Shown here in pieces: positions 9,372 through 63,552 of a stretch of DNA of 64,000 nt; positions within the stretch are counted from its first letter, which is position 1, and each line of letters starts with the position of its first letter. The translations under genes were made by a program, and so were the position numbers. The DNA is taken from NCBI GenBank assembly GCA_038087875.1, contig CM075994.1, forward strand, positions 9,550,001 to 9,614,000, given 5' to 3'. The DNA comes from Malacoraja senta. Lineage: Eukaryota. The notes beneath the pieces were generated by a model. It worked only from the letters and a program-made list of their open reading frames with translations, was not told the origin of the DNA and searched no databases.

Positions 9372-11512
9372 ATGAATTGCCTTGTGGTCCTGGTAGCTGG
9401 TCTCATTCTCAGTGCCTCTCCGGGTAAGGAAATATAACTATTTTGTTGTCCTCTAGTTTAACTGTGGAAAGGCATTTTAGATTCTCAAGTGGGATTGGAA
9501 TTCTTGGTTAAACTTTAAGCTGTGTGTTCGTTCACATGTAGAGAGTTTGTTACTGAATATGGAGTTAGTTATTGTCAAGTCCAGAGTGTTTTATTGTTAT
9601 ATATGTCCCAGATAGAAGGAACGGTGACGTTTCAGGTCGAGACCCTTCCTTCTCTCCAGAGATGCTGCCTGTCCCGCTGAGTTACTCCAGCATTTTATGT
9701 CTATGTTCGGTGTAAACCAGCATCTGCAGTTCCTTGCCACACACACTCACACACGCACACACACATATACACACACACACACACGCACACGCACACGCAC
9801 ACACACACACACGCACACATAATCACACACACACACACACACGCACATATGTACACATAATAGTGCAAAAGGCAAAACTATACGTGTATAGGTAGTTTAG
9901 ATACTACTTTGGCAGTGTGTAGGATACTGCTAGTGTACGGGGTGAACACTGGTCGGCACGGACTCGGTGGGCCGAAGGGCCTGTTTAAATGCTTTAAACA
10001 TCTGAGGGCTCCACATCACTGATGTGTAGGAAGGAACTGCAGATGTTGGTTTACACCGACAATAGACACAAAGTGCTGGAGAAACTCAGCGGGACAGGCA
10101 GCATCTCTGGAGAGAAGGAATAGGTGACGTTTCGGGTCGAGACCCTTCTTCAGACTGAGAGTCAGGGGAAAGGGAAATGAGAGAGATAGATGTTGATATG
10201 GAGAGATATTGAACAAGTGAATGAAAGGTATGCAAAAAAGTAAAGATGACAAAGGAAACAGGCCATTGTTAGCTGTGGGCGAGGTGAGAATGAGTTACAG
10301 ACAATGAGATTCGAGAAGACGACTTTCAAACCAGTAGAACCAGTTGGGATTTGGGAGGGTCTCGACCAAAACATCACCTGTACCTCTTCTCCAGAGCGGC
10401 TGCCTGACCCACTGAGTCACTCCAGCATTTTGTGTCGGTATTGTTCTAAGTTCAATGAAAGGAGTTGCTTGTTCTCAGAGCAGCAGCAGAACGAGCTGCA
10501 GGTGTCTCTCACACAACATCCTCTGTTTTGTTCTCAATGTACAGGTAACTGTTTGCAGTGTTACTCCTGCTTAGGATCAACGGAAAGATGCGTGGATAAT
10601 ACTGTTAACTGCTCTGCGGGGGAGCGATGCTTCCTTGTGGTAGCAGAGGCTGGTAAGTACGAAAGAATTTGAGATGCACACCTCTAGTTTAGAGATACAG
10701 CGTGGAAACATACACACACCAACCTTTGTGTGAGAAGGTTACCCCTCAGATTCCTTTTAAATCTTTTCCCCTCACCTTAAACCAATGTCCTCTGGTCCTC
10801 GATTCCACTACTCTGGGCAAGAGACTCTGTGCATCTACCCAATCTATTCCTCTCATGATTTTATACACCTCTATAGGATCACCCCTCATCCTCCTGCGCT
10901 CCAAGGAATAGAGACCCAGCCTGCTCAACCTCACCCTGTAGCTCACACCCTCTAGTCCTGGCAACATCCTCGTAAAGATGTTAAGACAGTACGATTCTGT
11001 GAATAAATAGCTGATTTACTCATAGAAATGTGAAAACTCAGTGGCATTCACACAAAGAGTGGTGGGTGTATGGAACAAGCTGCCAGAGGAGGTAGTTGAG
11101 GCAGGGACTATCACAACGTTTAAGAAACAGTTAGACAGGTACGTCGATCGGACAGGTTTGGGGGATATGGACCAAGCGCTGACAGGTGGGACTAGTGTAG
11201 CTGGGACATGTTGGCCGGTGTGGGCAAGTTGGGCTGAAGGGCCTGTTTCCACGCTGTAACACTCTAAAATGATACATGAACTATGAATATAGAAATTATT
11301 TATCTGACCATTCTGTTTTTCCAGCTGGTGTAAAGGCTTATGCCGCTGGATGTGCCCCCCCTGCTGAATGTAATGTCCAGCAAATTATCCCAGGAGCCAC
11401 AGTCTCTGTCAGCTGTTGTGATACTGACCTCTGCAACGCGAGCGACCAAGTTAAATTATCTCTTCTGCTGTTCCCTGCTCTGGTCTCAGTCTGGTTTGCA
11501 ATATTTATGTGA
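9372..11512 (+). CDS. Ly6/uPAR (three-finger) GPI-anchored protein, copy 1; join(9372..9423,10545..10652,11325..11512), 115 aa
   Basis: GT-AG phase-1 introns give MNCLVVLVAGLILSASPGNC|LQCYSCLGSTERCVDNTVNCSAGERCFLVVAEAAGVKAYAAGCAPPAECNVQQIIPGATVSVSCCDTDLCNASDQVKLSLLLFPALVSVWFAIFM*. It has a signal peptide, LxCxxC start, 10 Cys in the mature domain, CCxxDxCN end, hydrophobic GPI-type tail and the canonical Ly6 exon layout. Confidence 0.93.
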
Positions 11513-12376
11513 AGCAAGTGCATAATAATAATGCACAGTGCAATCTTCTGGGTGCTTTTTGTCTGAAGATCAGGGATAATGAGTCTTAACACTTGATTTC
11601 CAAAAGATGAGCAACTTAATCTAACAGATGTGCAAATCCTTTTCATTCCAAAATCAGTAACCCTCATCCTGGTTCAGGATTAGTTCATCGATGGTGGTTA
11701 GTTCTATGGGTTCTGTAATTCCTCAATCTTCCAATGTACTTTTGTGTTTGTTATTGATTTGAATTATGTTTTGGAGCTGGTTACATATATATACAGCTTC
11801 AGTAACTCCAACAGAAGGCTGTGGAGGCCAAGTGAATTGATATTTTTACCGCAGAGATAGATAGATTCTTGATTAGGACGGGTGTCAGGGGTTATGCGGA
11901 GAAGGTAGGAGAATGGGGTTAGGAGGGAGAGATAGATCAGCCGTGATTGAATGGCGGAGTAGACTTGATGGGCCGATTGGCCTAGTTCTGCTCCTATCAC
12001 CTACTGCATGACCTTATAACACTGTGTTTATGTCAGGAGGCTAGACAAGCATGTTTTGATGGCAGTGCATGGACAACCTCCTTCAAGTTGACAAAGGCAA
12101 AGCTAATACTTTCAAGAGAGAGCTCCTAAAGATAGCGGAGTCAGGGGATATGGGGAGTAGGCAGGAACAGGGAACTGATTGGGGATGATCAGCCATGATC
12201 ACATTGAATGGCGGTGCTGGTTCGAAGGGCCGAATGTCCTATTCCTGCACCTATTGTCTATTGTCTAATACACCATGCTTGATATTTGCAATCTTTTAAT
12301 AATTCAGATAATAATAATAATAATTATTATATAATTTGGAGTGTACCATTACTCTGTTCATCTGTTGCCGCATCTC

Positions 12377-12382
12377 AATAAA
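12377..12382 (+). terminator. Candidate polyadenylation signal of Ly6 copy 1
   Basis: AATAAA about 870 bp after the stop, in the same context after copy 3 (35597-35602) and copy 4 (60425-60430). Confidence 0.55.
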
Positions 12383-12829
12383 ATACTGATTTTCAAAAGA
12401 AAATGTGAGCGTATTCCTTTTTTTATGTTCCAGGAGCAGAATTAAGCCATTCGGCCCATCAAGTTCACTCTGCCCTTCAATTCTGGCCGATCTATCTTTC
12501 CCTCTCAACCCCATTCTCCCCATAACCCCTGACACTTGTACTAATCAAGAATCTGTCAAAGCCTCTATCAAATTCTTCAAAGCAATTTTATAAACTGCCT
12601 CACATGTTATTATTACTACACTGTATAATTCCGCGGCACGGTGGCGCAGCGGTAGAGTTGATGCCTCGCGGCGCCAGAGACCCGGGTTCCATCCGGACCA
12701 CGGGTGTCATCTGTACAGAGCTTGCATGTTTTCCCTGTGACTGTGTAGGTTTTCTCAGGGTACCTCGGTTTCTTGCCACACTCCAAAGACGTACAGGTTT
12801 GTAGGTTAATTAGCTTGGAACAATTGTAA

Positions 12830-32386: not shown

Positions 32387-32472
<86 letters not shown>

Positions 32473-32482
32473 TCACACACGA

Positions 32483-32562
<80 letters not shown>

Positions 32563-38662: not shown

Positions 38663-38744
38663 CTGGAGAGAAGGGGGGTAAAAGGGGGAAAGAGATGGAG
38701 AGAGTTAACGGCGATGGAGCGGAGGGACAGGAGCGAGAAGGTGG

Positions 38745-44817: not shown

Positions 44818-46423
44818 TACACACCTCATTGACACTTTTGGAATAATGAATGGAGTGGATGTGGAGAGGAAGTTTCCGCTAGGGGGAGAGTCTCGGCCTA
44901 GAGGGCACAGTCTCAGAATAAAAGGAGGTACCTTTAACCTACAGGGGGCGCCGTCGAGTATGGCTGCCCTGCCAGCAGCTGTTAGTCTTTTCACCTTTTT
45001 TTATTTCCAGTTAGTTAAAAGTGTTTGTTTTGGAGGTCTTTTAGTCTTTTTATGTGGGGGGGGGGAAGGGGGAAACTATTTTTCTCAGTACCTACGTGGT
45101 CGGAGATGCGGCTTTTCTCAGAGCCGTGTTTTCGCCCTTTCCTCACGTCCTACCGGCAGTCTGGAGCGGCGTTTCCTGCCGGGACCGGCCAGGACTTCAG
45201 CTTCAGCGGCGGCACAGCGCTGAGGCACCATCATGGAGTGGGCGATGCCTTACCCGGGTCGCCGTGCAGTAAGCTCCGGAGTGCTGTGACCGCCGGCTCC
45301 AACATCGCGGTCTGTGGTCAGCGGTCTGTGGAGCTTCCAGCCGCGGGCAACGCTGAGCTTTAAACACCGCGGAGCCTGGGATCTCACGACGAGGTCGCCA
45401 GAGTCGGAGCATCGACCAGCGTGGCTCATGGACTTCGGGAGCCGCGGTCTCCTGGGAGGAAGCGGCCGCTCCAGACACTCCGGGCCGCTGAGAGTGTTCA
45501 CCCGACGCCAGAACTACATCAACCGGCGAGAGGGCCTGAAGCATCGGGCTGCCGTATCGGCGACTGCAGAGGCTTCAATAGGCTTCGACTATGGGTGAAC
45601 TGGGGATGGGACTGGACTTTTGCGGCCTTCCCCCACAGTTGTGGGGGGGTGTTTTTATGTTTACTATTAAATTCTTGGATGTTGTGCCTTATCTTTATCT
45701 GTGTGCTGCCATGGCAAGTCAAATTTCACTACACCAATTGGTGTATGTGATAATAAATGTCCTTTCTCCTTAAAAAGGAGACGGAGGAGGAATTTCTTTA
45801 CCGTACCTCAGCAGACGTAACAATACACTAAACGTGCGCAAAAGTATAAAATGCCCACTTGTTTCACTTTTTCACACAGAGAGTTGTGAGTCTGTGCAAT
45901 TCTCTGCCTCAGATGGCGGTGGAGGCCGGTTGTCTGGATACTTTCAAGAGAGAGCTAGATAGGGCTCTTAAAGATAGCGGAGTCAGGGGATATGGGGAGA
46001 AGGCAGGAACGGGGTACTGATAGGGGATGATCAGCCATGATCAAATTGAATGGCGGTGCTGGCTCGAATGGCCGAATGGCCTCCTCCTACACCTATTGTC
46101 TATTGTGTTCGGGTTCAGCACGCAATCTCTCAAAAACATACCCAAGTATTAGAATGCAGTCACGTTTATCGCTACTCATTTGGAAGTCAGAATGTAGTCT
46201 GGACAAAACAAAGGCATTCGCAAGATGGTGGCGAGGGATATTTATAAAAGAAACACTATTCAAATTTATTACCGAAACTCAACAATGGAATCGTGCAAGG
46301 CAATGTGGGTTATGGAATCAAGTGACAGTATGGGGTTTGTCCGGGTGCTCCAGTTTCTTTGCACAATCCAAAGACACACAATGGTCAAATTGTAAAAAAA
46401 TGTACATTGTTTTGCCGAGGTTA

Positions 46424-47480
46424 GTAATAATAATAATAATATCTTTTATTGTCATTGCACATAGGTGCAACGAGATTTGGTATGCAGCTTCCATCCGATG
46501 TCATAACTTAATCAACTAAAAATTTAGATACCCAGAGAAACATGATTTATAAAAAAATTATATAGTAAAACAGTTAAAACAGTATAAAGTGCAAATGTGT
46601 CTGTGCCGGGTCGATGTGTGACGTGACCATCCGAGGGAGACAGTTCCTGGGGGGGGGCGGGGCACGGCACGCAGCGGGTCCGGTTCATAGCAGCTATAGC
46701 TCTGGGGATGAAGCTGTTCCTAAGTCTGGAGGTGCGGGCGTAGAAGGCCTTGTAACGTCTGCCGGAAGGTAGAAGTTCGAACAGACTATTGCAAGGGTGT
46801 GAGGAGTCTTTGTGAATGCTGACGGCCTTCCTGAGGCACCTTGTGTGCTAGATGCCCTCCAAGGCTGGTAGCTCTGTCCCAATGATCCTCTGCGCTCTGT
46901 GGACGACGCGCTGAAGAGCTCTCCTCTCCGCCTCCGTGCAGCTGAGATACCACACAGAGATGTCATATGTTAGGATGCTCTCTGTGGTGCAGCGGTAGAA
47001 GGTTGTCAGCAGCTGTTGGGGCAGACCAGCCTTTTTCAGTGTTCTCAGGAAGAACAGTCGTTGCTGTGCCTTCTTGACCAGCGCAGCAGTGCTGGTGGAC
47101 CATGTGAGGTCCTCTGAGATGTGTGTGCCCAGAAACTTAAAGCTGGACACTCTCTCCACACTGTCCCCGTTGATAAAGATAGGAGCGTATTCCCCATTAT
47201 GTGTCCTTCTGAAGTTGATAACAGCTCCTTGGTCTTAGAGGTGTTTACGGACAGGTTGTTATCTGAGCACCAGTCTGCCAGGTTCTGCACCTCCGCTCTG
47301 TAGTGTGTTTCATCACCTTTGGTGATCAGCCCGATCACCGTTGTGTCGTCTGCAAACTTGACAATGGTGTTGGTGTCGAATGCAGGAACACAGTCGTGTG
47401 TGAAGAGGAAGTAGAGCATGGGGCTCAGTACACAGCCCTGTGGTGTGCTGGTGCTCAGGGTGATAGTGGAGGACAGGTGC
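46424..47480 (-). mobile_element. Rex1/Babar-type LINE 3' fragment
   Basis: IVKFADDTTVIGLI, MERVSSFKFLGTHISEDLTW, FYRCTTESILTY; simple-repeat tail at ~46424-46442. Confidence 0.85.
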
Positions 47481-47935
47481 GGGCCTGATGCAAATTACTG
47501 GTGCAAATTCTTTGCCTTTCATGTAAACTTCAGTTCTCTCTTTTAATTACATTTCCTGTTTTGTTGAGGGAAGGTCTACTTTTAGACCAAAATATATCTG
47601 TAGTGGGGTAATGTGGAAGACGGTGTTCCTCTCAACAACAAGCAACAGTGGGGAGTATCTGCAGCATAAAGGAACTGCAGATATTGGATTATACCAAAGA
47701 TAGACACAGAGTGCTGGAGTAACTCAGCAGGTCAGGCAGTGTCTTTGGTGGAAAAGGACAGGCAATGTTTCGGATCGGGAAGGTTTAGTTTAGAGATACA
47801 GCGCGGAAACAGGCTCTTCGGCCCACCGAGTCCGCGCCAGCCAGCAATCCCCACACATTAACACCACCCTACACGCACTGGGGACAATTTAGACATACCA
47901 ATAAACAATAGACAATAGACAATAGACAATAGACA

Positions 47936-48420
47936 TGTCAAGTCAAGTCACATTTATTTATATAGCACATTTAAAAAACAACTCTCATTGGCCAAAGTGC
48001 TTTACATTTGTTATAAGAATAGCACAAACAAAACAAACTACATACATATATACATGTAGCCCTCACTTAGAGGACGTCAGGAAAGGCTTGGGAGTATAGA
48101 TAAGTCTTTAATCTTGACTTAAAAGAGTCGATGGAGGGGGCAGTTCTGATGGGAAAGGGGATGCTGTTCTACAAAGGCGCGGTCGCCCCTGAGCTTATGC
48201 CTAGACCGTGGGATATTCAGCAACCCCAAGTCAGCCGATCTGAGGGGCCTGGAGGTGGAGTGGTGGGTGAGAAGACTTTTTATGTAGGTGGGGGCAAACC
48301 CATTGAGGGCTTTGTAGACATGGAGGAGGAACTTGAAGTTTATACGGAAACCACACAGGGAGCCAGTGGAGAGAGGCCAGGATCGGGGTGATGTGGTCCC
48401 TTTTTCGGGTGCCCGTCAGT
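47936..48420 (-). mobile_element. L2 LINE 3' fragment
   Basis: RKRDHITPILASLHWLPV on the minus strand; tail gtcaagtcaagtca. Confidence 0.75.
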
Positions 48421-49336
48421 AGACAAGACAATACACAATGCCACGAGAAGGCCATTCGAGCCAGCACCGCCATTCAATGTGATCATGGCTGATCATCCCC
48501 AATCAGTACCCCGTTCCCGTCTTCTCTCCATTTCCCCAGACTCCGCTAACTTTAAAGCCCTATCTAGCTCTCTCTTGAAAGTATCCAGAGAACCGGCCTC
48601 CACCGCCCTCTGAGGCAGAGAACTCCAAAGACTCACAACTCTCCATTCTAAAAGCCAATTAACCTACAAACCTGCACGTCTTTGGAGTGTGGGAGGAAAC
48701 CGAGGATCTCGGAGAAAACCCATGCGGTCATGGGGAGAAGGTACAAACTCCACACAGACAGCACCAGTGGTTGGGATTGAACCCGGGTCTCCGGCGCTGC
48801 AAGGCAGCAACTCTAGCACTGCGCCACCCTGACGCGATTTGGCTTAGTTAATGCAAAACGTGGATGATTGGGTTGCTTGGGTGGGGACCAAAAGATGCCA
48901 GAGTCTATGAAAGGCCGTGAAGCAGCAAGCAACAACAATAGATTCTACAAGGCCTTTTCTGAACTCTCCATTGAGTGGCCATTGGTTTATTGCTGGCGTA
49001 TTTATTGATTATGGTTTGATTGAACGTGGAGAGGATATTTCCACAAGTGGGAGAGTCTCGGACAAGAGGTCATAACCTCAGAATTAATAGACAATAAGTG
49101 CAGGGGTAGGCCATTCGGCCATTCGAGCGTGCACTGCCATTGTGATCATTTCGTGAGACTGGTGACTAAAATTAGAGCACATGGTACTGGGGGTAGGGTG
49201 TTGACATGGATAGAATATTGGTTGGCAGACAGGAAGCAAAGAGTAGGAGTGAACGGGTCCTTTTCAGAATGGCAGGCATTGACGAGTGGAGTGCCGCAAG
49301 GCTCGGTGTTGGGGCCGCAAATGTTTACCATATATA

Positions 49337-51004
49337 CTAGCCTAAGTGAGACCCGTTGGGTCCCAACATCACACAGGAGGGCTAGTCCCCCAATGCAATA
49401 TTCCACCTCTCAACTAATTCCAATATTGGTGGCCAGTGGGGGGGGGGGCTTTCTGGAGTGCTAGTATGGGTGTTGTAGGCTGAAGGGACTGGTTTCCAGA
49501 GAGCTAGTATGGACATTGTGGGCCAAATGGATTCTTGGGCTGGCACCTCAGTCACTCAAGCCTGTTGTGCTGGCAGCTCACTCACTCACAGCTGGTGGGC
49601 TGGCAGTTGAGTCACGGCTTTTCCTTGAAATTCCATTTCAAGCAGGGTGCAAGGTCACCAAAATCAAATGCAGTTTCCTACCATTTCAAGCAGGGTGGAA
49701 GGCCACCAAATTCAAGTGCAGTTTCATACCATTTCAAGCAGGGTGCAAGGCCACAAAATTCAAGTGCAGTTTCATACCATTTCAAGCAGGGTGCAAGGCC
49801 ACAAAATTCAAGTGCAGTTTCATACCATTTCAAGCAGGGTGCAAGGCCACCAAATTCAAGTGCAGATTCATGCTATTTCAAGCAGGGTGCGAGGCCACCA
49901 AATTCAAGTGGCGTTTCATGCCATTTCAAGCAGGGTGCAAGGCCACCGAATTCGTGCAGTTTCATACCATTTCAAGCAGGGTGCAAGGCCACCGAATTCG
50001 TGCAGTTTCATACCATTTCAAGCAGGGTGGAAGACCACCGAATTCGTGCAGTTTCATACCATTTCAAGCAGGGTGCAAGGACACCAAATTCAAGTGCAGT
50101 TTCATGCCATTTCAAGCAGGGTGCAAGGCCACCAAATTCAAGTGCAGTTTCATGCCATTTCAAGCAGGGTGCAAGGCCACCGAATTCAAGTGTAGTTTCA
50201 TGCCATTTCAAGCAAGGTGCAAGGCCACCAAATTCAAGTGCAGTTTCATACCACTTCAAGCAGGGTGCAGGGCCACCAAATTCAAATGCAGTTTCATACC
50301 ACTTCAAGCAGGGTGCAGGGCCACCAAATTCAAATGCAGTTTCATACCATTTCAAGGAGGGTGCAAGGCCACCAAATGCAAGCGCAGTTTCATACCAGTT
50401 CATGCAGGGTGCAACGCCACCAAATTCAAGTGCAGTTTCCTGCCACTTCAAGCAGGGTGCAGGGCCACCAAACTCAAGTGCAGTTTCCTGCCACTTCAAG
50501 CAGGGTGCAGGACCACCAAATTCAAGTGCAGTTTCATGCCATTTCAAGCAGGGAGCAGGGCCACCAAATTCAAGTGCAGTTTCATACCACTTCAAGCAGG
50601 GTGCAGGGCCACCAAATTCAAGTGCAGTATCATGCCACTTCAAGCAGTGTGCAAGGCCACCAAATTCCACCCTCTCCCCCTTCTCTCTCACAGTCTCTCA
50701 CTTGTTTTCGGCAGAATTTCTCGCAGTTTCTGAGCTGCCAGCCTGCAAGGCTTGAGTTACTGAGCTGCCAGGCCTGATTGACTGAGCTGCCAGCCCAAGA
50801 ATCTATTCGGCCCACAATATCCATTCTAGCCCTCTGGAAACCAGTCCCTTCAGCCCACAACACCCATGCTAGCACTCCAGAAAGCACCCCCCCCACCCCC
50901 CACACTGGCCGGCAATCTTGGAATTGGTGGAGAGGTGGATTATTGTGTTGGGGGACCAGCCCTCCCATGTGAAGCTGGGACCCAACGGGTCCCACTTTGT
51001 CTAG
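49337..51004. mobile_element. Inverted pair of Helitron-like 3' arms (~270-bp inverted repeats) flanking a 48-bp minisatellite
   Basis: The left arm (ctagcctaagtgagacccgttgggtccc...) is the reverse complement of the right arm (...gggacccaacgggtcccactttgtctag). The interior ~49630-50665 has ~21 copies of ccatttcaagcagggtgcaaggccaccaaattcaagtgcagtttcata, including some 46-bp variants. Confidence 0.7.
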
Positions 51005-51087
51005 TAATCTTATATGTTTCAATAAGATACCCTCTCATCCTTCTAAATTCCAGTGTATACAAGCCCAGTCACTCCATTCTTTCAACA

Positions 51088-54000
51088 TATTTTATTTTAT
51101 TTATTTTATTTATTTTATTTATTTTATTTATTTTATTTATTTTATTTATTTTATTTATTTTATTTATTTTATTTATTTTATTCTTTATTTCGAACAGAAT
51201 AACAGAATAAAAAGCAAGTGTGAAACAGCATACAAAAAAACAAAACAAGAATATTTATAAAGTGTCATAAACAATATCTATAAATAAATGAAATCGCATG
51301 TGTCCGAAAAGGAGCAGGAAGAAGCCAAAGCTTATTAATTCCCACCACTTATTCAACTGCTTATAATTATCTTATACAAATTTAGCAGCAATATGTACAC
51401 CATATGTACACCAGCTATATGTACACCAAATTATTTACATTTATACACTAATCAAATATTTACAAAGCCATACAAAAAAAGAAAGAAAAAAAGAAAAAAG
51501 AAAAGAAAAAACCCTCATATACTATACAGTATCTCTTAGTCATATATACAACCCATCACCCTATAATCACCCTTCCCAATACAATCAGTATAACAAATAT
51601 CCCACTCACAATCACCTATCCCAATATCCTTTTAAAAAAGTGTTTTTGTACATCTTCTTGAACTGAATTATGTTTGTGCTAAGTTGTATCTCCTGTTCCA
51701 GACCATTCCACAAATTCACCCCACAGATTGCTATGCACATACTTTTAAGAGTTGTTCGGACATTGAGTTTTTTCAAATTATGTTCCCCTCTCAAATTATA
51801 CCCACCCTGTCTTTCCATAAACAGTTTTTGTATATTTCTTGGAAGTAAATTATTTCTTGCTTTGTACATGATTTGCGCAGTCTTAAATTTAACCAGATCG
51901 GTGAACTTCAGTGTATGTGACTTTAAGAATAATAAATTGGTATGTTCAAGATATCCAATTCTTATTGCTCTTTTTTGTAATGTGCATAACGGCTGTAGGT
52001 TGGTTTTGTAGGTGTTACCCCATATCTCCACCCAGTAACTCAGATATGGCAATATGAGTGTATTGTACAGAGTATGTAATGATTTGTGGTCCAGAATGTG
52101 TCTTGATTTTCCCAATATTGATATAGACTTTGCCAGTTTTGCTTTGACGTGGTTTATATGTGGTTTCCAGCAGATTTTGTAGTCTAAGATCACACCAAGA
52201 AATTTATTTTCATATACTCTTTCTATACTTATGTTATCTATTTTCAATTGTACTTGCGGGTTTGTTTTATGTTTTCCAAATAGCATTATCTTTGTTTTGC
52301 TTAAATTTAGAGACAATTTGTTGACATCAAACCACTGTTTTAATTTATTCATTTCTGATGTGATGACCTCCAAAAGCTGCTGCAAATTGCAAAAAATATT
52401 CGTATCATCGGCAAATAGAATCAATTTCAGTATATTTGATACTTTGCATATGTCGTTAATTTACATTATGAAAAGCTTTGGACCTAACACAGACCCTTGC
52501 GGTACTCCACAAGTTATGTTCATGTAAGTTGATTTATGTTCACCTATTTCTACAAATTGTTGCCTGTTTCTTAAATAGCTTCTCACTCAATCCAATCCAA
52601 CCCCTCTGATGCCATACCTATCCAGTTTCATGAGTAAAATGGCGTGATTTACGGTATCAAATGCTCTTTTAAAGTCTATGAATATTCCCACTGTAAGTTT
52701 TTTATTATCTATGCAATTTGTGAATTCCTCGACTAGTTCCATTAGTGCCATAGATGTTGATCTGTCTGTCCGGAATCCATATTGACTGTCGACCAAAAGC
52801 TTATGTTTTTCAATGAAATTGTCAAGTCTTTCTGTAAAACGTTTTTCAAGGATCTTGGAGAATTGGGAGAGTAAAGAAACAGGCCTGTAATTTGTGAAAT
52901 GATGTCTATCCCCAGTTTTATATAATAGTATTAGTTTTGCTATTTTCATTTTGTTCGGAAATTTACCTGATTGAAAAGACAAGTTACAGATATGAGTTAA
53001 TGGTTCTGCAATTTCTTCAATAACGTTTTTTTATTATAGATACATAGATACATAGAAAATAGGTGCAGGAGTAGGCCATTCGGCCCTTCAAGCCTGCACC
53101 GCCATTCAATATGATCATGGCTGATCATCCAACTCAGTATCCCGTACCTGCCTTCTCTCCATACCCCCTGATCCCTTTAGCCACAAGGGCCACATCTAAC
53201 TCCCTCTTAAATATAGCCAATGAACTGGCCTCAACTACCCCCTGTGGCAGAGAGTTCCAGAGATTCACCACTCTCTGTGTGAAAAAGTTTTTCCTCATCT
53301 CGGTCTTAAAGGATTTCCCCCTTATCCTTAAGCTGTGACCCCTTGTCCTGGACTTCCCCAACATCGGGAACAATCTTCCTGCATCTAGCCTGTCCAACCC
53401 CATAAAAATGTTGTACGTTTCTATAAGATCCCCTCTCAATCTCCTAAATTCTAGCGAGTATAAGCCAAGTCTATCCAGTCTTTCTTCATATGAAAGTCCT
53501 GACATCCCAGGAATCAGTCTGGTGAACCTTCTCTGCACTCCCTCTATGGCTATAATGTCCTTCCTCAGATTTGGAGACCAAAACTGTACGCAATACTCCA
53601 GGTGTGGTCTCACCAAGACCCTGTACAACTGCAGTAGAACCTCCCTGCTCCTATACTCAAATTCTCTTGCTATGAAAGCCAACATACCATTCGCTTTCTT
53701 CACTGCCTGCTGCACCTGCATGCCTACTTTCAATGACTGGTGTACCATGACACCCAGGTCTCGCTGCATCTCCCCATTTCCTAATCGGCCACCATTTAGA
53801 TAATAGTCTGCCTTCCCGTTTTTGCCACCAAAGTGGATAATCATATCAATATAATTCCAATCAGTAGAGGATTTGCTTTTACATTTTCTTACAGTGTCTA
53901 TGATTACTTTTCCTTCGACTGCTCTAAGGAAGATAGAGCTAGTATTTCTATCCCAAAGATCAGTATCTGCCCCTTCTTTTGTTTCTGGGTCATTAATTTT

Positions 54001-54893
54001 TTCTGCCAAATCTGGTCCCACATTTACAAAGAATTTGTTAAAACCATTAACTGCATCATCCATATTATTCATTGTCTTGTGTTCCTCAATAAAATACTCA
54101 GGGTAGCCTGTATTTTTTGATCCATTTCTAATAATACTATTTAGCACGTTCCATAAACCTTTCATATTATTTTTATTATTCTCTAACATTTTATTATAGT
54201 ATTCTTTCTTACATATCCTCATAATAGTGGTTAATTTATTCTTATATTTTTTATATTTATTTTCTGCTTCAGTAGTTCGATATTTTATGAATTGTCTATA
54301 TAGTGTGTTTTTTCTTTTTGCATGCATTTTTTTAAACCCTTAGTGATCCATGGACTATTTGTCTGTTTTTGTCTATCACTATATTGTTTCACAGGACAGT
54401 TTTTGTCATAAAGTGATTTAAAAATATTTAGAAATCCATTGTATGCTTTGTCGACATCTTCACCCTCATATACTACCCTCCAATTCTGTTTCAGTAATTC
54501 ATTCTTAAATGCATTTATGTTTTCTTCGGTTCTCACCCTTTTATATTTGAAATGACTGGTGTTCTTAGGTTTCCTATAACTACAGTGATAAACAATAAAA
54601 ACAGGTAAATGGTCACTGATGTCACTGTATAATAGTCCGCTTACTGTATTGCTTTCCATAATGTTTGTGAATATGTTGTCTATTAATGTGGCACAATGAG
54701 AAGTAATTCTACTAGGTCTGGTTATTCTAGGATATAAACCCATACTGTACATAGTATTGATGAATTCTTCTGTCATTTTATGCTTTTTTGGATTCAACAG
54801 GTCAATATTGTAATCCCCACAGATGAACATAATCTTTTGTAATGATTTTGTAATATTTTCCATCCAATCTTTAAATATTTCAATACTGGAGCT
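51088..54893 (-). mobile_element. AT-rich CR1-group (L2/Crack-like) LINE, APE + RT, interrupted by CR1
   Basis: ICGDYNIDLL, TLIDNIF, ISDHLPVF (APE); NYRPVSLL, FIDFKRAFDTVNH, LFADDTNIF (RT); (TTTATTTAT)n tail at ~51088-51190; several stops and frameshifts. Confidence 0.85.
53037..53838 (-). mobile_element. CR1 LINE 3' fragment nested in the preceding LINE
   Basis: IHFGGKNGKADYYLNG...RPHLEYCVQFWSP...KAGTGY, nearly identical to 42852-43655. Confidence 0.93.
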
Positions 54894-55240
54894 CTGTATA
54901 AGGCCATACTGGGAAAATGTTAATGCAGTTGTAAAAAATATCTTGGGTTATAAAATCCCAAATACCTGCTCTGTGATGTATCTGGGGCATATTAAAGATT
55001 TTGTAAAAAATAGAAGATACATATTTGATTAAAGTTTTGCTTGCAGCAAGTAAGAAGGCCATTACCAGACAGTGGCTTAATGAAAAAAGTCCAAAACAGG
55101 AACAGTGGTTAGAAATTGTGCGAGACATCTTTAATATGGAAAAATTGACATATTCCTTGAGAGTCAAGGAGAATTCATTTGAGAAGATCTGGGAAAAATG
55201 GACCGTTTATTTGAGCCACGACACCAATTAGATAAATGCC
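54894..55240 (+). mobile_element. L1-clade LINE ORF2 C-terminal fragment
   Basis: IRPYWENVNAVVKNILG and LLAASKKAITRQWL...W...MEKLTY...FEKIWEKW resemble the fish L1 ORF2 C-terminus. Confidence 0.7.
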
Positions 55241-56106
55241 GAGCTAGATATGGGAAGCTTGTAATTCGTGTAATTCGTGCTCAGTTGTAATACCGAACTC
55301 GCTTATACACAGAGGGGCGTAAGAGATATTTAGTATTGTTTCTTTATTGATAGTTTTCTGTGTTTTATTTGTCTTTGTTTAACAAATAATTTTTTGTGCT
55401 CTTCAAGAGAGAATTAGATTTAGCTATTGGGGCTAACGGAATCAAGGGATTTGGGGAAAAAGCAGGAACGGCAACAAATCTACCGCCACGTCCCCTAAAA
55501 TCTGGAGAAGGGACCTCACCGGAAACATCTCCAGTCTACGTTCTCCAGAGATGTTGCCTGACCACCTGAGTTACTCCACAGATGTTGCCTGCCCACCTGA
55601 GTTACTCCACAGATGTTGCCTGCCCACCTGAGTTACTCCACAGATCTTGCCTGCCCACCTGAGTTACTCCGGAACTTTGTGGGGGATGTTCGTTACCAGC
55701 ACCTGCAGATCCTTGTAATTACTTCCTTGATTCCTTCCCTCCACAGATGACTGGTTTGGGAATTTCAGCATTTCGTGCGTATCTCTTTCGTAAATACCGT
55801 CCCAATATCATCTCTTCCAGTAATTCAGGTTTTCTCTATCATGTAATCATCAGTAATTCAATCTTTTCCTTGCCTCCTCCCTCTACCTCTATCACACCAT
55901 CCCATAGTCAAAATCACAAGGGATTTTCAATAAAGGCTCAGAGTGCTGGCGTAACTCGGTGAGTCGGGCAGCATCTCTGGAGAACACGGACTGGTGACGT
56001 TTCCAGTTGGGATCCTTCTACAGATTTCAGGGAATTTGAAGACTTCTGTTTGAAGTTTTTCCTGTTCTCTCTCTTGCCTTCGAAGCTCAGCTGTTCAAAT
56101 TCAAAG

Positions 56107-56425
56107 ATGAATTGCCTTGTGGTCCTGGTAGCTGGTCTCATTCTCAGTGCCTCTCCGGGTAAGGAAATATAACTATTTTGTTGTCCTCCAGTTTAACTGT
56201 GGAAAGGCATTTTAGATTCTCAAGTGGGATTAAGCTGTGTGTTCGTTCACATGTAGAGAGTTTGTTACTGAATATGGAGTTAGTTATTGTCAAGTCAAGA
56301 GTGTTTTATTGTTATATGTCCCAGATAGAAGGAATGGTGACATTTCAGGTCGAGACCCTTCCTTCTCTCCAGAGATGCTGCCTGTCCCGCTGAGTTGCTC
56401 CAGAATGTTATGTCTACACACACAC

Positions 56426-56511
<86 letters not shown>

Positions 56512-56523
56512 ACACACACACAA

Positions 56524-56599
<76 letters not shown>

Positions 56600-59500
56600 A
56601 CACACACACACACATATGTACACATGAAACAAACAATAATAGTGCACAAAGGCAAAACTATACGTGTATAGGTAGTTTAGATACTACTTTGGCAGTGTGT
56701 AGGATAGTGTTAGTGTACGGGGTGATCACTGGTCCGCGCGGGCTCGGTCGGCCGAATGGCCTGTTTACATGCTGTAAACATCAGAGGGCTCTTCAGCACT
56801 GAGGTGTAGGAAGGAACTGCAGATGTTGGTTTACACCAAAAATGGACACAAAGTGCTTGAGTAACTCAGCGGGACAGGCAGCATCTCTGGAGAGAAGGAA
56901 TGGATGATGTTTCGGGTCGAGGCCCTTCTTCAGACTGAGGGTCAGGCGAAAGAGAAGCGAGAGAGATAGACAGTGATATCGAGAGATATTCAACAAATGA
57001 ATGAAAGATATGCAAAAAGGAAAAGATGATGAAGGAAACAGACCATTGGTAGCTGTGGGCGCGGTGAGAACGAGTTACAGACAATGAGACTCGAGAAGAC
57101 GTCTTTCAAACCAGTACGGTAGACAAAATTGCTGGAGAAACACAGCGTGTAAGTCAGCATCTATGGAGCCATGGAAATAGGCAACGTTTCTGGCCGAAAC
57201 CCTTCTTCAGACTGGTTCTTCAAACCAGTACAACCAGCTGGGATTTGGGAGGGTCTCGAACAAAACATCACCTGTACCACTTCTCCAGAGCGGTTGCCTG
57301 ACCCGCTGAGTTTTTTTTGTGTCGGTATTGTTCTATGTTTAGTGAAAGGAGTTGTTCGTTCTCAGAGCAGCGCAGAACGAGCTGCAGGTGTCTCTCACAC
57401 AACCTCCTCTGTTTTGTTCTCAATGTACAGGTAACTGTTTGCAGTGTTACTACTGCTTAATATCCAATGAAAGATGCGTGGATAATACTGTTAACTGCTC
57501 TGCGGGGGAGCAATGTTACCTTGGGGTTGCAGAGGCTGGTAAGTACGAACCAATTTGAGATGCATACCTCTAGTTTAGAGATACAGATTCAAAGAAACAT
57601 AGAAACATAGAAAATAGGTGCAGGAGTAGGCCATTCGGCCCTTCGAGCCTGCACTGCCATTCAATATGATCATGGCTGATCATCCAACTCAGTATCCTGT
57701 ACCTGCCTTCTCTCCATACCCCCTGATCCCTTTAGCCACAAGGGCCACATCTAACTCCCTCTTAAATATAGCCAATTGAACTGGCCTCAACTCCCTTCTG
57801 TGGCAGAGAATTCCAGAGATTCACCACTCTCTGTGTGAAAAATGTTTTTCTCATCTCGGTCCTAAAGGATTTCCCCTTTATCCTTAAACTGTGACCCCTT
57901 GTCCTGGACTTCCCCAACATCGGAACAATCTTCCTGCATCTACCCTGTCCAACCCTTAAGAATTTTGTAAGTTTCTATAAGATCCCCCCTCAATCTTCTA
58001 AATTCTACCGAGTACAAGCCGAGTCTATCCAGTCTTTCTTAATATGAAAGTCCTGACATCCCAGGAATCAGTCTGGTGAACCTTCTCTGTACTCCCTCTA
58101 TGGCAAGAATGTCTTTCCTCAGATTAGGAGACCAAAACTGTACGCAATACTCCAGGCGTGGTCTCACCAAGACCCTGTACAACTGCAGTAGAACCTCCCT
58201 GCTCCTGTACTCAAATCCTTTTGCTATGAATGCTAACATACCATTCGCATTCTTCCTATTACATCTTTTGCCCTTCACCTTAAACCTATGTCCTCTGGTC
58301 CTCGATTCCCCCTACTCTGGGCAGGAGGCTCTGTGCGTCTATCCAATCTATTCCTCTCATGATTTTATACACCTCTATAAGATTAACCCTCATCCTCCTG
58401 TGCCCTCTCTGTGCCTCTGTGTCCCACTGTGTGCCTCCGTGTCCCTCTCTGTGCCACTGTGTCCCTCTATGTGCCCCTGTGTCCCTCTCTGTGCTTCTGT
58501 GTCCCTCTCTGTGCTTCTGTGTCCCTCTCTGTGCCCTGTGTCCCTCTCTGTGCCCCTGTGTCCCTCTCTTACTTCTGTGTCCCTCTCTTGCTTCTGTATC
58601 CCTCTCTTGCTTCTGTGTCCCTCTCTCTCTGCCCCCCTATCTCTCTAGCCGCGCCTGCAAGTTGGGGGCTATACATGAGTGGATAGGGCGGGGGATGGAG
58701 TAAAAGTAGTGGATGAATAATATTAATATAATTTCAATGGGGGATGTTAGTGTGTGGGGGGGGGGCTGATTGGTTAGTGTGTGTGTGTGTGGGGTGTATA
58801 GTGTGTGTGTGGGGGGTGGTTATTGTGTGTGTGTGTGTGGGGGGGTGGTTAGTGTGTGTGTGTGGGGGTGGTTAGTGTGTGTGTGTGGGGGTGGTTAGTG
58901 TGTGTGGGGGTGTATAGTGTGTGTGGGGGGTGTATAGTGTGTGTATGGGGGGGTGGTTACTGTGTGTGTGTGGGTTGTAGTTAGTGTGTAGGGGGTGGTT
59001 ACTGTGTGTGGGAGGTTGGTTAGTGTGTGTGTGGGGGGTGTATAGTGTGTGTGTGGGGAGTGGTTACTGTGTGTGTGTGGGGGTGGTTAGTGTGTGTGTG
59101 GTGGGGTGGTTAATGTGTGTGGGGGATGGTTAGTGTGTGTGTGGGGGATGGTCAGTGTGTGTGTGTGGGGGGTGGTTAGTGTGTGTGTGCGGGGTGGGTA
59201 GTGTGTGTGTGGGGGTGGTTAGTGTGTGTGTGGGGGGTGGTTAGTGTGTGTGTGCGGGGTGGGTAGTGTGTGTGGGGGGTGGTGGTTAGTGTGTGTGTGT
59301 GGGGGGGTGGTTAGTGTGTGTGTGGGGGGTGGGTAGTGTGTGCGTGGGGGGTGGTTAGTGTGTGTGTGGGGGGTGGTTAGTGTGTGTGGGGGGGTGGGTA
59401 GTGTGTGCGTGGGGGGTGGTTAGTGTGTGTGTGGGGGGTGGTTAGTGTGTGTGTGCGGGGTGGGTAGTGTGTGTGTGGGGGGGGGGGGTTAGTCTGTGTG

Positions 59501-59804
59501 TGACACCGCAACCACACGTAGAGGGGATGAGACCCAACGGGTCCCACTTGGTCTAGTGAACTATAAACACAGAAATTATTTAACTATCCATTCTGTTTTT
59601 CCAGGAGGTTTTACGGTTTACGAAGCTGGATGTGTTCCCTCTACTGCTTGTAATATCCAGCAAACTATTGATGGTGTCACATTCTCTATCCACTGTTCTC
59701 TACCCTCATCCAGGTTCAGGATTAGTTCATCGATGGTGGTTAGTTCTATGGGTTCTGTAATTCCTCAATCTTCCAATGTACTTTTTTCTTTGTTATTGAT
59801 TTGA
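56107..59804 (+). CDS. Ly6/uPAR copy 4 with truncated LU domain and novel C-terminus (possible pseudogene); join(56107..56158,57431..57538,59605..59804), 119 aa
   Basis: MNCLVVLVAGLILSASPGNC|LQCYYCLISNERCVDNTVNCSAGEQCYLGVAEAGGFTVYEAGCVPSTACNIQQTIDGVTFSIHCSLPSSRFRISSSMVVSSMGSVIPQSSNVLFSLLLI*. Splice sites are intact; a deletion after 59697 removes Cys9, Cys10 and the GPI tail. Confidence 0.75.
57590..58255 (-). mobile_element. CR1 LINE 3' fragment in intron 2 of Ly6 copy 4
   Basis: NANGMLAFIAKGFEYRSREVLLQLY...; (agaaacat)n tail; absent from intron 2 of copies 1-3. Confidence 0.9.
58400..59556 (+). mobile_element. Helitron-like 3' part with CT-rich and GT-rich minisatellites in intron 2 of Ly6 copy 4
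   Basis: Ends gagacccaacgggtcccacttggtCTAG|tgaactat; the paralogous empty site in copy 1 is a|tgaactat (~11276), an A|T target. Confidence 0.7.
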
Positions 59805-61649: not shown

Positions 61650-61655
61650 TTTATT
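61650..61655 (-). terminator. Candidate CSNK2B polyadenylation signal
   Basis: AATAAA on the minus strand at the end of a largely non-TE tract ~1.8 kb downstream of the CSNK2B stop; duplicated at 36834-36839. Confidence 0.5.
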
Positions 61656-63461
61656 CAGAAATACACATTAGTAACAATCCCAGAACCGATTAGACAAGTT
61701 CTTTAAAAAAAAAACACGGGCAGCTTTTTACCAAGTCAACTTCCTTTATAGAATACGTACAATACAGTTCATGACCTTAACTTACCTGAGGGGAAAGGGC
61801 AGGTGAAAGGAACCAAAGTATTCTTCATTCCGAGCAGGGTGGTGGAATAAATGAGTCACGTCTGGTCAATGCTATAGGATTCTCAATGTCGTTGCTAAAT
61901 GGTCGGGATCTCTTCGAAATTGGTAGCAACTCTCTCACATGTACGGATTGCAGAGAGAAAATAAAGATGGGGGGGGGAACGGCAGTGGGAAGTTGGGACA
62001 ACCGAGTGTAGATGTTGTTCACCCTTTCAACTGGTTCATCACTTTGGGTCTTTGGTACCAATCCGTTGTCAAAACTAAATGGCGGTTCAATGGTACGTCG
62101 CTGGCCTGTCGTTCAGAAGCCCACTGACGTGATACTCTTCACCCTAAACCGCTGCCTACACTGCGGGACTGGAAACCAGACTTCTGACAACACCGGGATG
62201 GGCTGATCCCATCCAACGGACGCAGAGTGCTGGAGTAACTCAGCGGGTCAGGCAGCATCTGTGGAGAACATGAATAGGTGACGTTTCAGAGTGCTGGAGA
62301 AACTCAGCGGGTCAGGCAGCATCTGTGGAGAACATGGATAGGTGACGTTTCACAGAGTGCTGGAGTAACTCAGCGGGTCAGGCAGCATCTGTGGAGAACA
62401 TGGATAGGTGACGTTTCAGAGTGCTGGAGTAACTCAGCGGGTCAGGCAGCATCTGTGGAGATTGTGGGTAGGTGACGTTTCACAGAGTGCTGGAGTAACT
62501 CAGCGGGTCAGGCAGCATCTGTGGAGAACATGGATAGGTGACGTTTCAGAGTGCTGGAGTAACTCAGCGGGTCAGGCAGCATCTGTGGAGAACGTGGGTA
62601 GATGACGTTTCGGGCCGTGAACTATCTTCAAGGGTCCCGTCCCGAGCTGGCCCCCATCTATGTTCTCCAGAGATGCTGCCTGACACCCCCCAGTTACTCC
62701 AGCACTCTGTCTTTCTTTGGTGTAAACTAGCACCTGCAGTTCCTTCGTTATTACACCTTGCAGGCCTGCGACTGCCCTCAAATCCTCGAGACGGAGACAG
62801 AGAGCGCCATGGGTGACCGGGACTCAGATAAAGAACTCCCAGAAGTGAACAGGGTTGAACAGAGAATAATCCACCTTAGACAAGACACAAAATGCTGGAG
62901 TAAACTCAGCGGCTCAGGCAGCATCTCTGGAGAGAGGGGACTTTTGTGTCTGAAGAAGGGCCTCGACCCGAAACGTCACCCGTTCCCTCTCCAGAGATGC
63001 CGCCTGTCCCGCTGAGTTACTCCAGCATTTTGAGCCTATCGATGGTGTAAACCAACATCTGCAGTTCCTTCCCAAGACAGATAATTCACCCTGCCATGTC
63101 TTCACAAACACACACACACAAGCGGTTCATTTTTGTGTTGATGAAACGTTTTAAAGTTTGTTTTTGTTCCCCCACTGAAAAGAAATCCATTGGCACCAAC
63201 TTCAGTTCACGACTGTGAATGGGGACAGGGGAGTGGAAGCGGCAATAACAGAATAATGTGGTTTTGGAGGGGGTGGGGAGGGGGGGTTAGGGAGGGAGAG
63301 AGGGAGAGAGGGGAGGAGAAGGCAAAGAGTTTCTTTTGTTAAAGTGAACACTGTTTACAGCCTCGTGGCATATCATCTGTCTGCGGGCCCGCTGTTAAAC
63401 AGACATCTTTTCTTGAGGAGTTGCCCGGGTCTCGCTCTCTCTCTCGCTCTCTCTTCTTTCT

Positions 63462-63552
63462 CTAACGGATAGTCTTGACTGGGCTTTTGAAGTTGCTGGC
63501 AGCTTGGAGCTGGAGTTGGTAGGCCATGGGGTGTATCTTGAAGCCGTAGAGT
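63462..63552 (-). CDS. CSNK2B: Casein kinase II subunit beta, last coding exon (upstream exons lie beyond the right edge)
   Basis: After a polypyrimidine tract and AG (63553-63554), a 91-nt phase-2 exon encodes (R)[29 protein letters not shown], which matches the vertebrate CK2-beta C-terminus as I recall it. Confidence 0.95.

What the first reader, a model, noticed from the sequence alone, without database searches (positions are those of the whole stretch)
9372..63552. Tandem Ly6/three-finger gene cluster directly next to CSNK2B: an MHC class III-like neighbourhood in a probable cartilaginous fish
Seen: four spliced Ly6 paralogues on the + strand converge tail-to-tail on the last exon of CSNK2B. 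Established: in the human MHC class III region CSNK2B is immediately followed by LY6G5B and LY6G5C, with the LY6G6 genes nearby. Inference: this window is MHC class III-linked, the CSNK2B-Ly6 linkage may date to the jawed-vertebrate ancestor, and the local Ly6 family has expanded recently and independently. The genes are absent from the ORF track as whole proteins and could be unannotated.
Basis: partly seen in the sequence, partly recalled or inferred. Interest (0 to 1): 0.85.

Follow-up and report, generated by a model that had tools for sequence, protein, structure and literature searches.

The report
Skate Ly6 cluster abutting CSNK2B
In a skate genome, two intact and two broken copies of a small three-finger (Ly6) gene sit tail-to-tail against CSNK2B, a spot that likely marks the MHC class III region, where public gene lists of shark, sawfish and reedfish also place Ly6-type genes, so this human-like neighbourhood is probably as old as jawed vertebrates.

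Summary
The linkage is real but the count is not. Four Ly6 copies lie on the + strand: two are intact 115-aa three-exon genes (9372-11512, 32005-34724), one has a stop and no exon 3, and one lost about 240 nt of exon 3. The CSNK2B last exon (30/30 identical to human residues 186-215) is present twice: intact at 63552 and as a frameshifted orphan at 38662, inside a 96-97% duplicated block. That block may be a real duplication or an uncollapsed haplotype. Closest relatives are skate proteins. Published MHC gene tables put CSNK2B in class III in white shark, catshark, sawfish, reedfish and lungfish, with Ly6-named genes between it and CLIC1/DDAH2 in three of them. In Leucoraja the nearest relative of the window's genes shares a 302-kb scaffold with a gene that groups with a sawfish MHC-chromosome Ly6. 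Class III location is therefore likely and an ancestral Ly6 slot probable. Orthology to human LY6G5B/C is untested, and orientation differs. The family has near-invariant tails and variable finger loops; positive selection is not shown. An undescribed but expected kind of cluster.

The parts
9372..11512 (+). Ly6 copy A, intact: exons 9372-9423, 10545-10652, 11325-11512; 115 aa; hydrophobic N-terminus, ten-cysteine LU domain, hydrophobic C-terminal tail (GPI signal inferred); AATAAA at 12377
   Evidence: exon 3 is 94% identical to Leucoraja P0001
23364..24908 (+). Ly6 copy B, pseudogene: exons 23364-23415 and 24801-24908, in-frame TAG at 24887-24889, exon 3 absent (the B unit skips about 2.8 kb of the A unit)
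   Evidence: A unit 3988-17679 is collinear with B unit 17896-29128 at about 82-94% in the main collinear blocks
29185..29384 (.). 200-N assembly gap; 29385-30282 repeats 27998-28895 and 16533-17428 at 95%
32005..34724 (+). Ly6 copy C, intact: exons 32005-32056, 33757-33864, 34537-34724; 115 aa, 90% identical to A; AATAAA at 35597
   Evidence: related transcripts on the + strand
34872..39108 (.). Duplicated block (Ly6 3' UTR, spacer, CSNK2B 3' UTR, last exon, end of last intron) matching 59702-63997; 1.6-2.3% substitutions plus 20 indels in the stretches compared
38573..38662 (-). Orphan copy of the CSNK2B last coding exon with a 1-nt frameshifting deletion at 38634; no other CSNK2B exon found in the window by short-motif scan; 3' UTR to AATAAA at 36834
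   Evidence: three runs covering the site carry the intact form
39109..55277 (.). Spacer of retroelement fragments and minisatellites, not collinear with the A or B units
   Evidence: retroelement identity from recalled resemblance of the ORFs, not from a library search
56107..59804 (+). Ly6 copy D, broken: exons 56107-56158, 57431-57538 and 59605 onward; about 240 nt missing after 59697, so the frame runs into 3' UTR (119-aa product without the last two LU cysteines or the tail); most divergent loops
   Evidence: (no Pfam match for its exon 3)
61650..63552 (-). Intact CSNK2B last exon: coding 63552-63462, 3' UTR to AATAAA at 61650; the rest of the gene would lie beyond the window end
   Evidence: related - strand transcripts over the matching UTR

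Best explanation
[quoted passage not shown] Shown: gene structures, lesions, tandem units of about 14 kb (A, B), a 4.2-kb duplicate carrying the CSNK2B tail, and 70% of the window in repeated sequence. Inferred mechanism: misaligned recombination among these repeats copies whole Ly6 units and once swept in the end of CSNK2B. Exchange between copies would keep promoters, introns, signal peptide and tail alike, while the finger loops stay divergent. Predicted product: a GPI-anchored three-finger surface protein whose variable loops bind external ligands. I think innate-immune or epithelial recognition is the most likely role (about 0.45), an inference from location and family pattern only.
For: Fold and family: 20 of 20 skate relatives match Pfam UPAR_LY6, Toxin_TOLIP and CD59; the model of P0001 (mean pLDDT 67) matches GPIHBP1 best (E 8e-5). 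Class III: csnk2b is listed on the MHC chromosome of white shark, catshark, sawfish, reedfish and lungfish. Ly6 slot: sawfish csnk2b, SPACA4-like, CLIC1, SPACA4-like, ddah2; white shark csnk2b ... lypc, clic1; reedfish ddah2, lypc, clic1, msh5, SPACA4-like, one uncharacterized gene, csnk2b; human CSNK2B, LY6G5B, LY6G5C ... LY6G6, DDAH2, CLIC1 (PMC1309616 Table 3). Second skate: Leucoraja P0001 (XP_055521460) and SPACA4-like P0180 (XP_055521464) share a 302,464-bp scaffold. P0180 groups (100/98) with sawfish P0194, whose 19,913,265-bp sequence fits sawfish MHC chr34 (last listed gene ends at 19,829,058). Nearest single-domain non-skate hits are chimaera and shark SPACA4-like proteins (E 4.7e-22 and 2.8e-18; next single-domain hit 9.6e-11). 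Pattern: mean identity among 20 skate proteins is 95.5% in the tail, 83.1% in the signal region and 57.5% in the LU domain; A and D differ at 27 of 93 nt in the exon 3 loops against 73 of 1530 nt in four non-coding flanks (Fisher p 5e-13). Stranded RNA of a relative lies on + for Ly6 and on - for the CSNK2B UTR.
Against: The window's own flanking genes were not seen. The tree does not resolve which Ly6 lineage gave rise to the skate family (skate plus shark/chimaera group 53/81; three alternatives not rejected, p-AU 0.28-0.31). Amblyraja members are listed on four different sequences (193.2, 33.3, 32.2 and 22.5 Mb), so the family may be dispersed, or that metadata or assembly may be unreliable. 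Orientation is opposite to human LY6G5B and to the nearest sawfish and reedfish SPACA4-like genes. No Ly6-named gene directly abuts csnk2b in the tables read, and the catshark and lungfish neighbours are unnamed. pN/pS in the LU domain is about 1 (A/C 0.063/0.056; A/D 0.191/0.218; C/D 0.198/0.196), so positive selection is not shown. The 93-nt loop segment was chosen after seeing the data. No DNA contig of another organism bridged Ly6 and CSNK2B. No functional data.
Confidence: 0.72

Rival explanations
1. Secondary arrival: the skate family is a mobile Ly6 lineage that landed beside CSNK2B in skates, independent of the old class III Ly6 genes. The location would be class III but the resemblance to human LY6G5/6 coincidental.
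For: Opposite orientation to LY6G5B; Amblyraja members listed on four sequences; deep tree unresolved, and a grouping with four other Ly6 proteins used as outgroup is not rejected (p-AU 0.31); best PDB sequence hits are CD59 and PSCA, though only solved members can appear there.
Against: Nearest non-skate relatives are chondrichthyan SPACA4-like proteins, the name carried by the Ly6 genes beside csnk2b in sawfish and reedfish. The bamboo shark relative P0176 is on a 35.0-Mb sequence, compatible with but not proven to be MHC Chr37. White shark lypc is convergent with csnk2b.
Confidence: 0.2
2. Partial assembly artefact: copy C plus the orphan CSNK2B exon is an uncollapsed second haplotype of copy D plus CSNK2B, so the haploid locus has fewer copies and one CSNK2B tail. 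This can hold together with the best explanation.
For: C lies 2.6 kb from a scaffold gap with duplicated sequence on both sides. The frameshift is a single-base loss in a dinucleotide run, and 8 of 20 indels between the blocks are of that kind. All three runs covering 38634 show only the intact form (X22 3 of 3 reads from one start, X1 57.9 of 57.9, X17 548.1 of 553). Only 2 substitutions in the 543 aligned nt around the exon.
Against: No gap between the two copies; 58 of 2506 and 22 of 1366 substitutions in the wider block, high for alleles; C and D differ at 27 of 93 nt in exon 3 and have unrelated intron 2 inserts; the runs laid are probably not the window's individual, and contigs drop rare variants.
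Confidence: 0.3
3. Neutral repeat-driven turnover: the copies are by-products of an unstable, repeat-rich region, and loop divergence reflects old tracts that escaped gene conversion, with no selection for new binding.
For: 2 of 4 copies are broken; pN/pS about 1; synonymous sites in the loops are also divergent (pS 0.22-0.30 on about 23 sites); the 48 intron bases before D exon 3 differ from A at 6 positions.
Against: Divergence is concentrated in the mature domain while the tail is nearly invariant across three genera; eight cysteines are invariant and two nearly so in 20 proteins; intact copies are annotated in all three skates.
Confidence: 0.3
4. Reproductive role: the variable loops serve gamete recognition, as for the Ly6 proteins Bouncer and SPACA4.
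For: Nearest relatives are named SPACA4-like (automatic names); Bouncer mediates sperm-egg binding in zebrafish (abstract start of 10.1101/354688).
Against: Human SPACA4 is a one-exon gene on 19q13 (PMC4839075 Table 1), these are three-exon genes; the cited preprint's legend lists Spaca4l and Lypc as groups separate from SPACA4 and Bouncer; tissues of the laid runs are not given.
Confidence: 0.12
5. Misassembly joined unrelated Ly6 and CSNK2B loci.
For: One gap in the window; no whole genome available to check.
Against: The Ly6-to-CSNK2B junction is present twice in gap-free sequence; Leucoraja scaffold sharing and the sawfish, white shark and reedfish gene orders agree with it.
Confidence: 0.03

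Closest known systems
Human/mouse MHC class III Ly6 cluster (LY6G5B, LY6G5C, LY6G6C/D/E/F)
   Same: Three-exon, single-LU genes next to the 3' end of CSNK2B, in the CSNK2B to DDAH2/CLIC1 interval (PMC1309616 Table 3, PMC4839075 Table 1).
   Different: Human LY6G5B is downstream on the same strand and forms read-through chimeras with CSNK2B (PMC3626593); the skate copies are convergent, nearly identical outside the loops, and include pseudogenes. LY6G5B/C are tabulated as not GPI-anchored in PMC4839075, whereas the skate proteins keep a hydrophobic tail. Sequence orthology untested.
Fish and chondrichthyan 'SPACA4-like' / lypc / lye genes
   Same: Best single-domain non-skate matches; genes so named lie between csnk2b and clic1/ddah2 in sawfish, white shark and reedfish.
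   Different: One or two named copies per table, 135-617 kb from csnk2b; the skate family is a separate clade (100/97) with at least 5 to 7 distinct 90%-identity clusters per annotated skate; which lineage is its parent is unresolved.
NCBI 'PSCA-like' / 'CD59-like' proteins of Leucoraja, Amblyraja and Rhinoraja
   Same: Same family: 61-94% identity over exon 3, 115-116 aa for most, same tail.
   Different: Only automatic names; no paper found that describes them; the window's copies are not among the hits.
Birth-and-death LY6/three-finger clusters (TOP1MT-linked cluster of tetrapods, snake 3FTx)
   Same: Tandem duplication, pseudogenes and orphan exons (PMC10421932 passages); loss of the membrane anchor recurs, loosely like copy D.
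   Different: Different locus (that paper has 0 mentions of MHC or shark); intact skate copies keep the anchor signal; D also loses two core cysteines, so it is unlikely to be a folded secreted form; nothing suggests a venom role.

Membership tests
Ly6/uPAR (single LU domain) | Ten-cysteine LU pattern ending in CCxxxxCN | tested here: met
   A and C carry all ten; pattern conserved in 20 relatives; not met by B and D
Ly6/uPAR (single LU domain) | Three exons: signal peptide, N-half, C-half plus anchor signal | tested here: met
   52/108/188-nt exons with GT-AG boundaries; typical structure per PMC4839075
Ly6/uPAR (single LU domain) | Profile and fold match | tested here: met
   Pfam UPAR_LY6 31 bits against cutoff 24.8 for P0001, 20 of 20 members match; single window exons match below cutoff; Foldseek best hit GPIHBP1 for the P0001 model
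Ly6/uPAR (single LU domain) | Splicing of the predicted junctions | tested here: inconclusive
   One search listed no exon joint among 15 shown of about 13,100; X17 contig 18 starts at the exon 3 acceptor and variants of the same depth (50.7) lie in exon 2, which implies splicing in a relative; exon 1 was outside the stretch laid
Ly6/uPAR (single LU domain) | GPI anchoring at the cell surface | not testable with these tools
   Inferred from the hydrophobic tail after the CN motif; no predictor or experiment run
MHC class III region | Contains CSNK2B | tested here: met
   Last exon 30/30 identical to human; csnk2b on the MHC chromosome in 5 of 5 tables
MHC class III region | Other class III genes and MHC I/II on the same scaffold in this assembly | not testable with these tools
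   No genome held; none inside the 64 kb; only indirect support from Leucoraja and sawfish
LY6G5B/LY6G5C orthologues | Same strand, directly downstream of CSNK2B | tested here: not met
   Copies are on +, CSNK2B on -; human arrangement per PMC3626593
LY6G5B/LY6G5C orthologues | Grouping with mammalian LY6G5/6 in a tree | not tested
   No mammalian LY6G sequence among named hits; one Amia protein auto-named LY6G6D (P0182) was in the tree, in the bony-fish clade, without supported link to the skate clade
CD59 orthologue | Grouping and synteny with CD59 | tested here: inconclusive
   Pfam CD59 42.7 bits against cutoff 33.9 for P0001, but no named CD59 orthologue was in the tree; lungfish CD59 lies about 477 Mb from CSNK2B
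Secreted three-finger toxins | No membrane anchor | tested here: not met
   A, C and 20 aligned relatives keep the hydrophobic tail

The most novel reading that the evidence does not exclude
Skates carry an MHC-linked, copy-number-variable family of three-finger surface receptors whose ligand-facing loops are kept diverse by selection while everything else is homogenised, much as in MHC and NK-receptor clusters, and it descends from a jawed-vertebrate class III Ly6 gene that also founded the mammalian LY6G5/G6 cluster.
Probability: 0.25. Interest if true: 0.65.

Novelty: new member of a known kind. Interest (0 to 1): 0.4.

Why it matters
A 2005 zebrafish survey (PMC1309616) found no class III Ly6 genes and suggested they may be mammal-specific or too divergent to detect. 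The main text of the 2023 cartilaginous-fish MHC paper (PMC10751288) does not mention Ly6 or CSNK2B and dropped the thorny skate because key MHC genes were unplaced. This window, read with that paper's own gene tables, favours the second option: Ly6 genes probably belonged to class III from the start of jawed vertebrates, hidden under names such as SPACA4-like, PSCA-like and lypc. It also gives a foothold in the poorly assembled skate MHC and a testable candidate for an MHC-linked variable receptor family. The step is incremental: class III conservation in elasmobranchs is published, and lineage-specific Ly6 expansions are common.

Tried and rejected
No whole genome is held for the window, so flanking genes were not listed. 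First spliced translations were off by one base and were corrected; the first CSNK2B look-up used the wrong frame and was corrected. Rfam: 0 matches in 64 kb. A hairpin-like stretch in the CSNK2B UTR was therefore not pursued. Thirteen short recalled CK2-beta motifs found no upstream CSNK2B exon in six frames (7 hits, none in a CK2-beta context); motifs split by introns could be missed. Exon 3 of copy B: only two 13-nt matches between 24909 and 31950. Run search: no RNA holder listed for 9300-11700; the guessed-RNA rows had shares of 0.15-0.22. In one search repeats swamped the joint and loose-end tables, and summed contig depths (X1: Ly6 241 against CSNK2B 57.9-73.3; X15: Ly6 UTR 1236-1578 against 289-348) are not copy number or expression measures, so I use them as hints only. 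Tree tests could not choose a parent lineage. Positive selection was not shown by pairwise counts. Atlas searches gave only generic LU clusters. A toxin reading of auto-names such as mipartoxin-like was rejected because the anchor signal is retained. A simple 24.8-kb tandem duplication was rejected because 39.1-55.3 kb is not collinear with 14-30 kb. Earlier findings: none in three look-ups.


Full report
Observation. Exon searches find four copies of exon 1 and exon 2 of one Ly6-type gene on the + strand, but only two full copies of exon 3. With corrected boundaries, A (9372-9423, 10545-10652, 11325-11512) and C (32005-32056, 33757-33864, 34537-34724) each give 115 aa with GT-AG introns, a hydrophobic N-terminus, the ten LU cysteines and a hydrophobic tail. 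B (23364-24908) has TAG at codon 47 and no exon 3; its unit skips about 2.8 kb of the A unit. D (56107-59804) lacks about 240 nt of exon 3, loses the last two cysteines and the tail, and reads into the 3' UTR. The 30 residues encoded at 63554-63465 on the - strand are identical to human CK2-beta 186-215.

The block 34872-39108 matches 59702-63997 at 96-97%, so the CSNK2B last exon and 3' UTR are present twice. The inner copy has a one-base frameshifting deletion at 38634, and no upstream CSNK2B exon was found by a scan with thirteen short recalled motifs. A 200-N gap at 29185-29384 separates A and B from the rest, with 95%-identical sequence on both sides. About 70% of the window matches another place in the window. 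The two tails differ by 58 of 2506 and 22 of 1366 substitutions and 20 indels, 8 of them in single-base runs. The three runs that cover 38634 show only the intact form, but they are probably other individuals or species. I put a real duplication at about 0.7 and an uncollapsed haplotype at about 0.3.

Organism and family. All 19 hits to exon 3 are skate proteins (Leucoraja 5, Amblyraja 7, Rhinoraja 7), auto-named PSCA-like or CD59-like in 18 cases, with 61-94% identity. All 20 aligned relatives match Pfam UPAR_LY6, Toxin_TOLIP and CD59. A model of P0001 (mean pLDDT 67, pTM 0.47) matches GPIHBP1 best. In a 52-row tree the skate proteins and window copies form one clade (22 rows, 100/97); the seven Rhinoraja rows group together (91/62) and the fifteen Rajidae rows, including A, C and D, group together (98/91) with genera intermingled. 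B was left out of the tree, and D entered with its first 84 residues only. The window is therefore likely from a hardnose skate, and the expansion is skate-wide with continuing turnover.

Expression. I laid four of 22 listed runs on 32650-39900. In the stranded polyA run X22 (about 6% of the run read; most reads 90-95% alike, so a relative), reads over the Ly6 3' UTR have their first mate on - (8 at 34735) and reads over the CSNK2B UTR on + (14-18 at 36935-37026), which in the usual library type means convergent transcripts. No exon joint was among the 15 joints shown, which are dominated by repeats. Contig 18 of X17 (a run flagged 'probably DNA') begins at the exon 3 acceptor, and variants of the same depth lie in exon 2, which implies exon 2-3 splicing in a relative. 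The exon 1 junction was not tested.

Is it class III? The window's own scaffold could not be read. The supplement of PMC10751288 lists csnk2b on the MHC chromosome in white shark, catshark, sawfish, reedfish and lungfish. Sawfish chr34 reads abhd16a, TRAF2-like, nfkbil1, csnk2b(+), SPACA4-like(+, 135 kb on), CLIC1, an uncharacterized gene, SPACA4-like(-), CCN1-like, ddah2, NCR3. White shark chr19 reads csnk2b(+), a tRNA gene, three unnamed genes, lypc(-, 617 kb on), clic1. Reedfish chr1 reads ddah2, lypc, clic1, msh5, SPACA4-like(-), one uncharacterized gene, csnk2b(-). Catshark and lungfish neighbours are unnamed; in lungfish three + strand genes converge on CSNK2B, and a lungfish 'CD59-like' hit (P0093) lies on a sequence of matching length, which is a lead only. 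In Leucoraja the closest relative of A and C (P0001) shares a 302,464-bp scaffold with SPACA4-like P0180, four accession numbers away. P0180 groups at 100/98 with sawfish P0194, whose 19,913,265-bp sequence fits chr34. Together this makes class III location likely (about 0.9) and an ancestral Ly6 slot between CSNK2B and CLIC1/DDAH2 probable.

Against a simple reading. Human LY6G5B lies downstream of CSNK2B on the same strand and forms read-through chimeras (PMC3626593); these copies are convergent. The nearest single-domain non-skate relatives among 1.84 billion representatives are chimaera and shark SPACA4-like proteins (I named 19 further hits of the 150 listed), but the tree joins them to the skate clade at only 81/82 and, in a 26-row tree, 53/81, with three alternatives not rejected. 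No mammalian LY6G sequence was available, so orthology to LY6G5B/C is untested. Amblyraja members are listed on four sequences of different length; PMC10751288 states that many key MHC genes of that assembly are unplaced, so this may reflect dispersal or assembly.

How it likely works. Shown: tandem units, lesions and a mosaic of divergence. Among 20 skate proteins mean identity is 95.5% in the tail, 83.1% in the signal region and 57.5% in the LU domain. A and D differ at 27 of 93 nt in the first part of exon 3 against 73 of 1530 nt in four non-coding flanks; A and C at 11 of 93 against 88 of 2094 (segment chosen after inspection). Synonymous sites in the loops are diverged too, and pN/pS is about 1, so the loops look older than their flanks and positive selection is not shown. 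Inferred: unequal crossing-over among repeats makes and breaks copies, exchange homogenises flanks, and divergent loops persist, possibly because they bind different ligands. Predicted product: a GPI-anchored surface protein. I favour innate-immune or epithelial recognition (about 0.45) over neutral turnover (0.3) or gamete recognition (0.12); none was tested.

Literature seen. Nine searches: (term sets combining cartilaginous fish, shark, skate, MHC class III, CSNK2B, Ly6, lypc, spaca4l, LY6G5B, synteny). None listed a paper describing a CSNK2B-Ly6 linkage in cartilaginous fish or this skate family; the library lacks most subscription journals, so this is not proof of absence. PMC10751288: abstract, passages (0 hits for ly6 and csnk2b in the main text; figures not seen), and supplement parts 6, 7, 17, 19, 24, 47 and 56 of 98 plus three term searches. 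PMC1309616, PMC4839075, PMC3626593, PMC10421932 and 10.1101/2021.06.11.448072: passages only. PMC7677710: passages and one supplement search. 10.1101/354688: abstract start and passages; its tree of Lypc, LY6G6e/d and Spaca4l is in a figure and supplement I could not see and may bear on orthology. That lypc and SPACA4-like genes are Ly6 family members rests on their names, Pfam columns, and PMC4839075.

Verdict. A real, class III-linked Ly6 cluster in a skate, half pseudogenised, with a duplicated CSNK2B tail of uncertain reality. The ancient neighbourhood is recoverable from public gene tables but was not found stated in print in my searches. New member of a known kind; interest 0.4.

Noticed in passing
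window 15684-16484 and 27355-27949: Paired satellite arrays (about 64-bp unit rich in CATTT) preceded by 30-bp repeats at 15165 and 26672; they mark the tails of the A and B units. A related 30-bp repeat and a different 48-bp array lie at 49536-50667, suggesting a repeat-bearing mobile element family.
   Followed up: no
window 30283-31570: LINE-like insert with a 448-codon open stretch (30093-31436, + strand) just after the gap, upstream of copy C, whose upstream region is truncated at about 31954.
   Followed up: no
window 51615-54947 (- strand): AT-rich (36-40% GC) retroelement-like ORF pieces interrupted by a repeat at 53037-53840 that is 93-95% identical to copies at 42852 and 57593 (the last inside intron 2 of copy D).
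   Followed up: no
window 62000-62220 and 37180-37400: Non-repetitive part of the CSNK2B 3' UTR ending in a short hairpin-like palindrome; no Rfam match.
   Followed up: partly
window 1-3990: Apparently unique sequence with a 36/72-bp tandem repeat (2396-2662) and a GC-rich stretch near 3500-3950; no gene identified.
   Followed up: no
P0026, P0191 (Callorhinchus; P0191 and P0174 on one 23,279-bp scaffold): Chimaera has two-domain and one-domain relatives of this family side by side, suggesting a parallel tandem cluster.
   Followed up: partly
lungfish NC_056743.1 654.9-656.6 Mb: Three unnamed + strand genes converge on CSNK2B(-), the same geometry as in the window; whether they are Ly6 genes is unknown.
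   Followed up: partly
P0193, P0195, P0196, P0197 (Mobula, Hypanus): SPACA4-like relatives are listed on 187-199-Mb sequences, like several Amblyraja copies (193 Mb); class III may be fused to a large chromosome in some batoids, or the metadata may be unreliable.
   Followed up: no
P0024 (Amblyraja): An annotated isoform whose C-terminus resembles the off-frame reading of exon 3 seen, so a frameshifted or mis-spliced family member exists there too.
   Followed up: no
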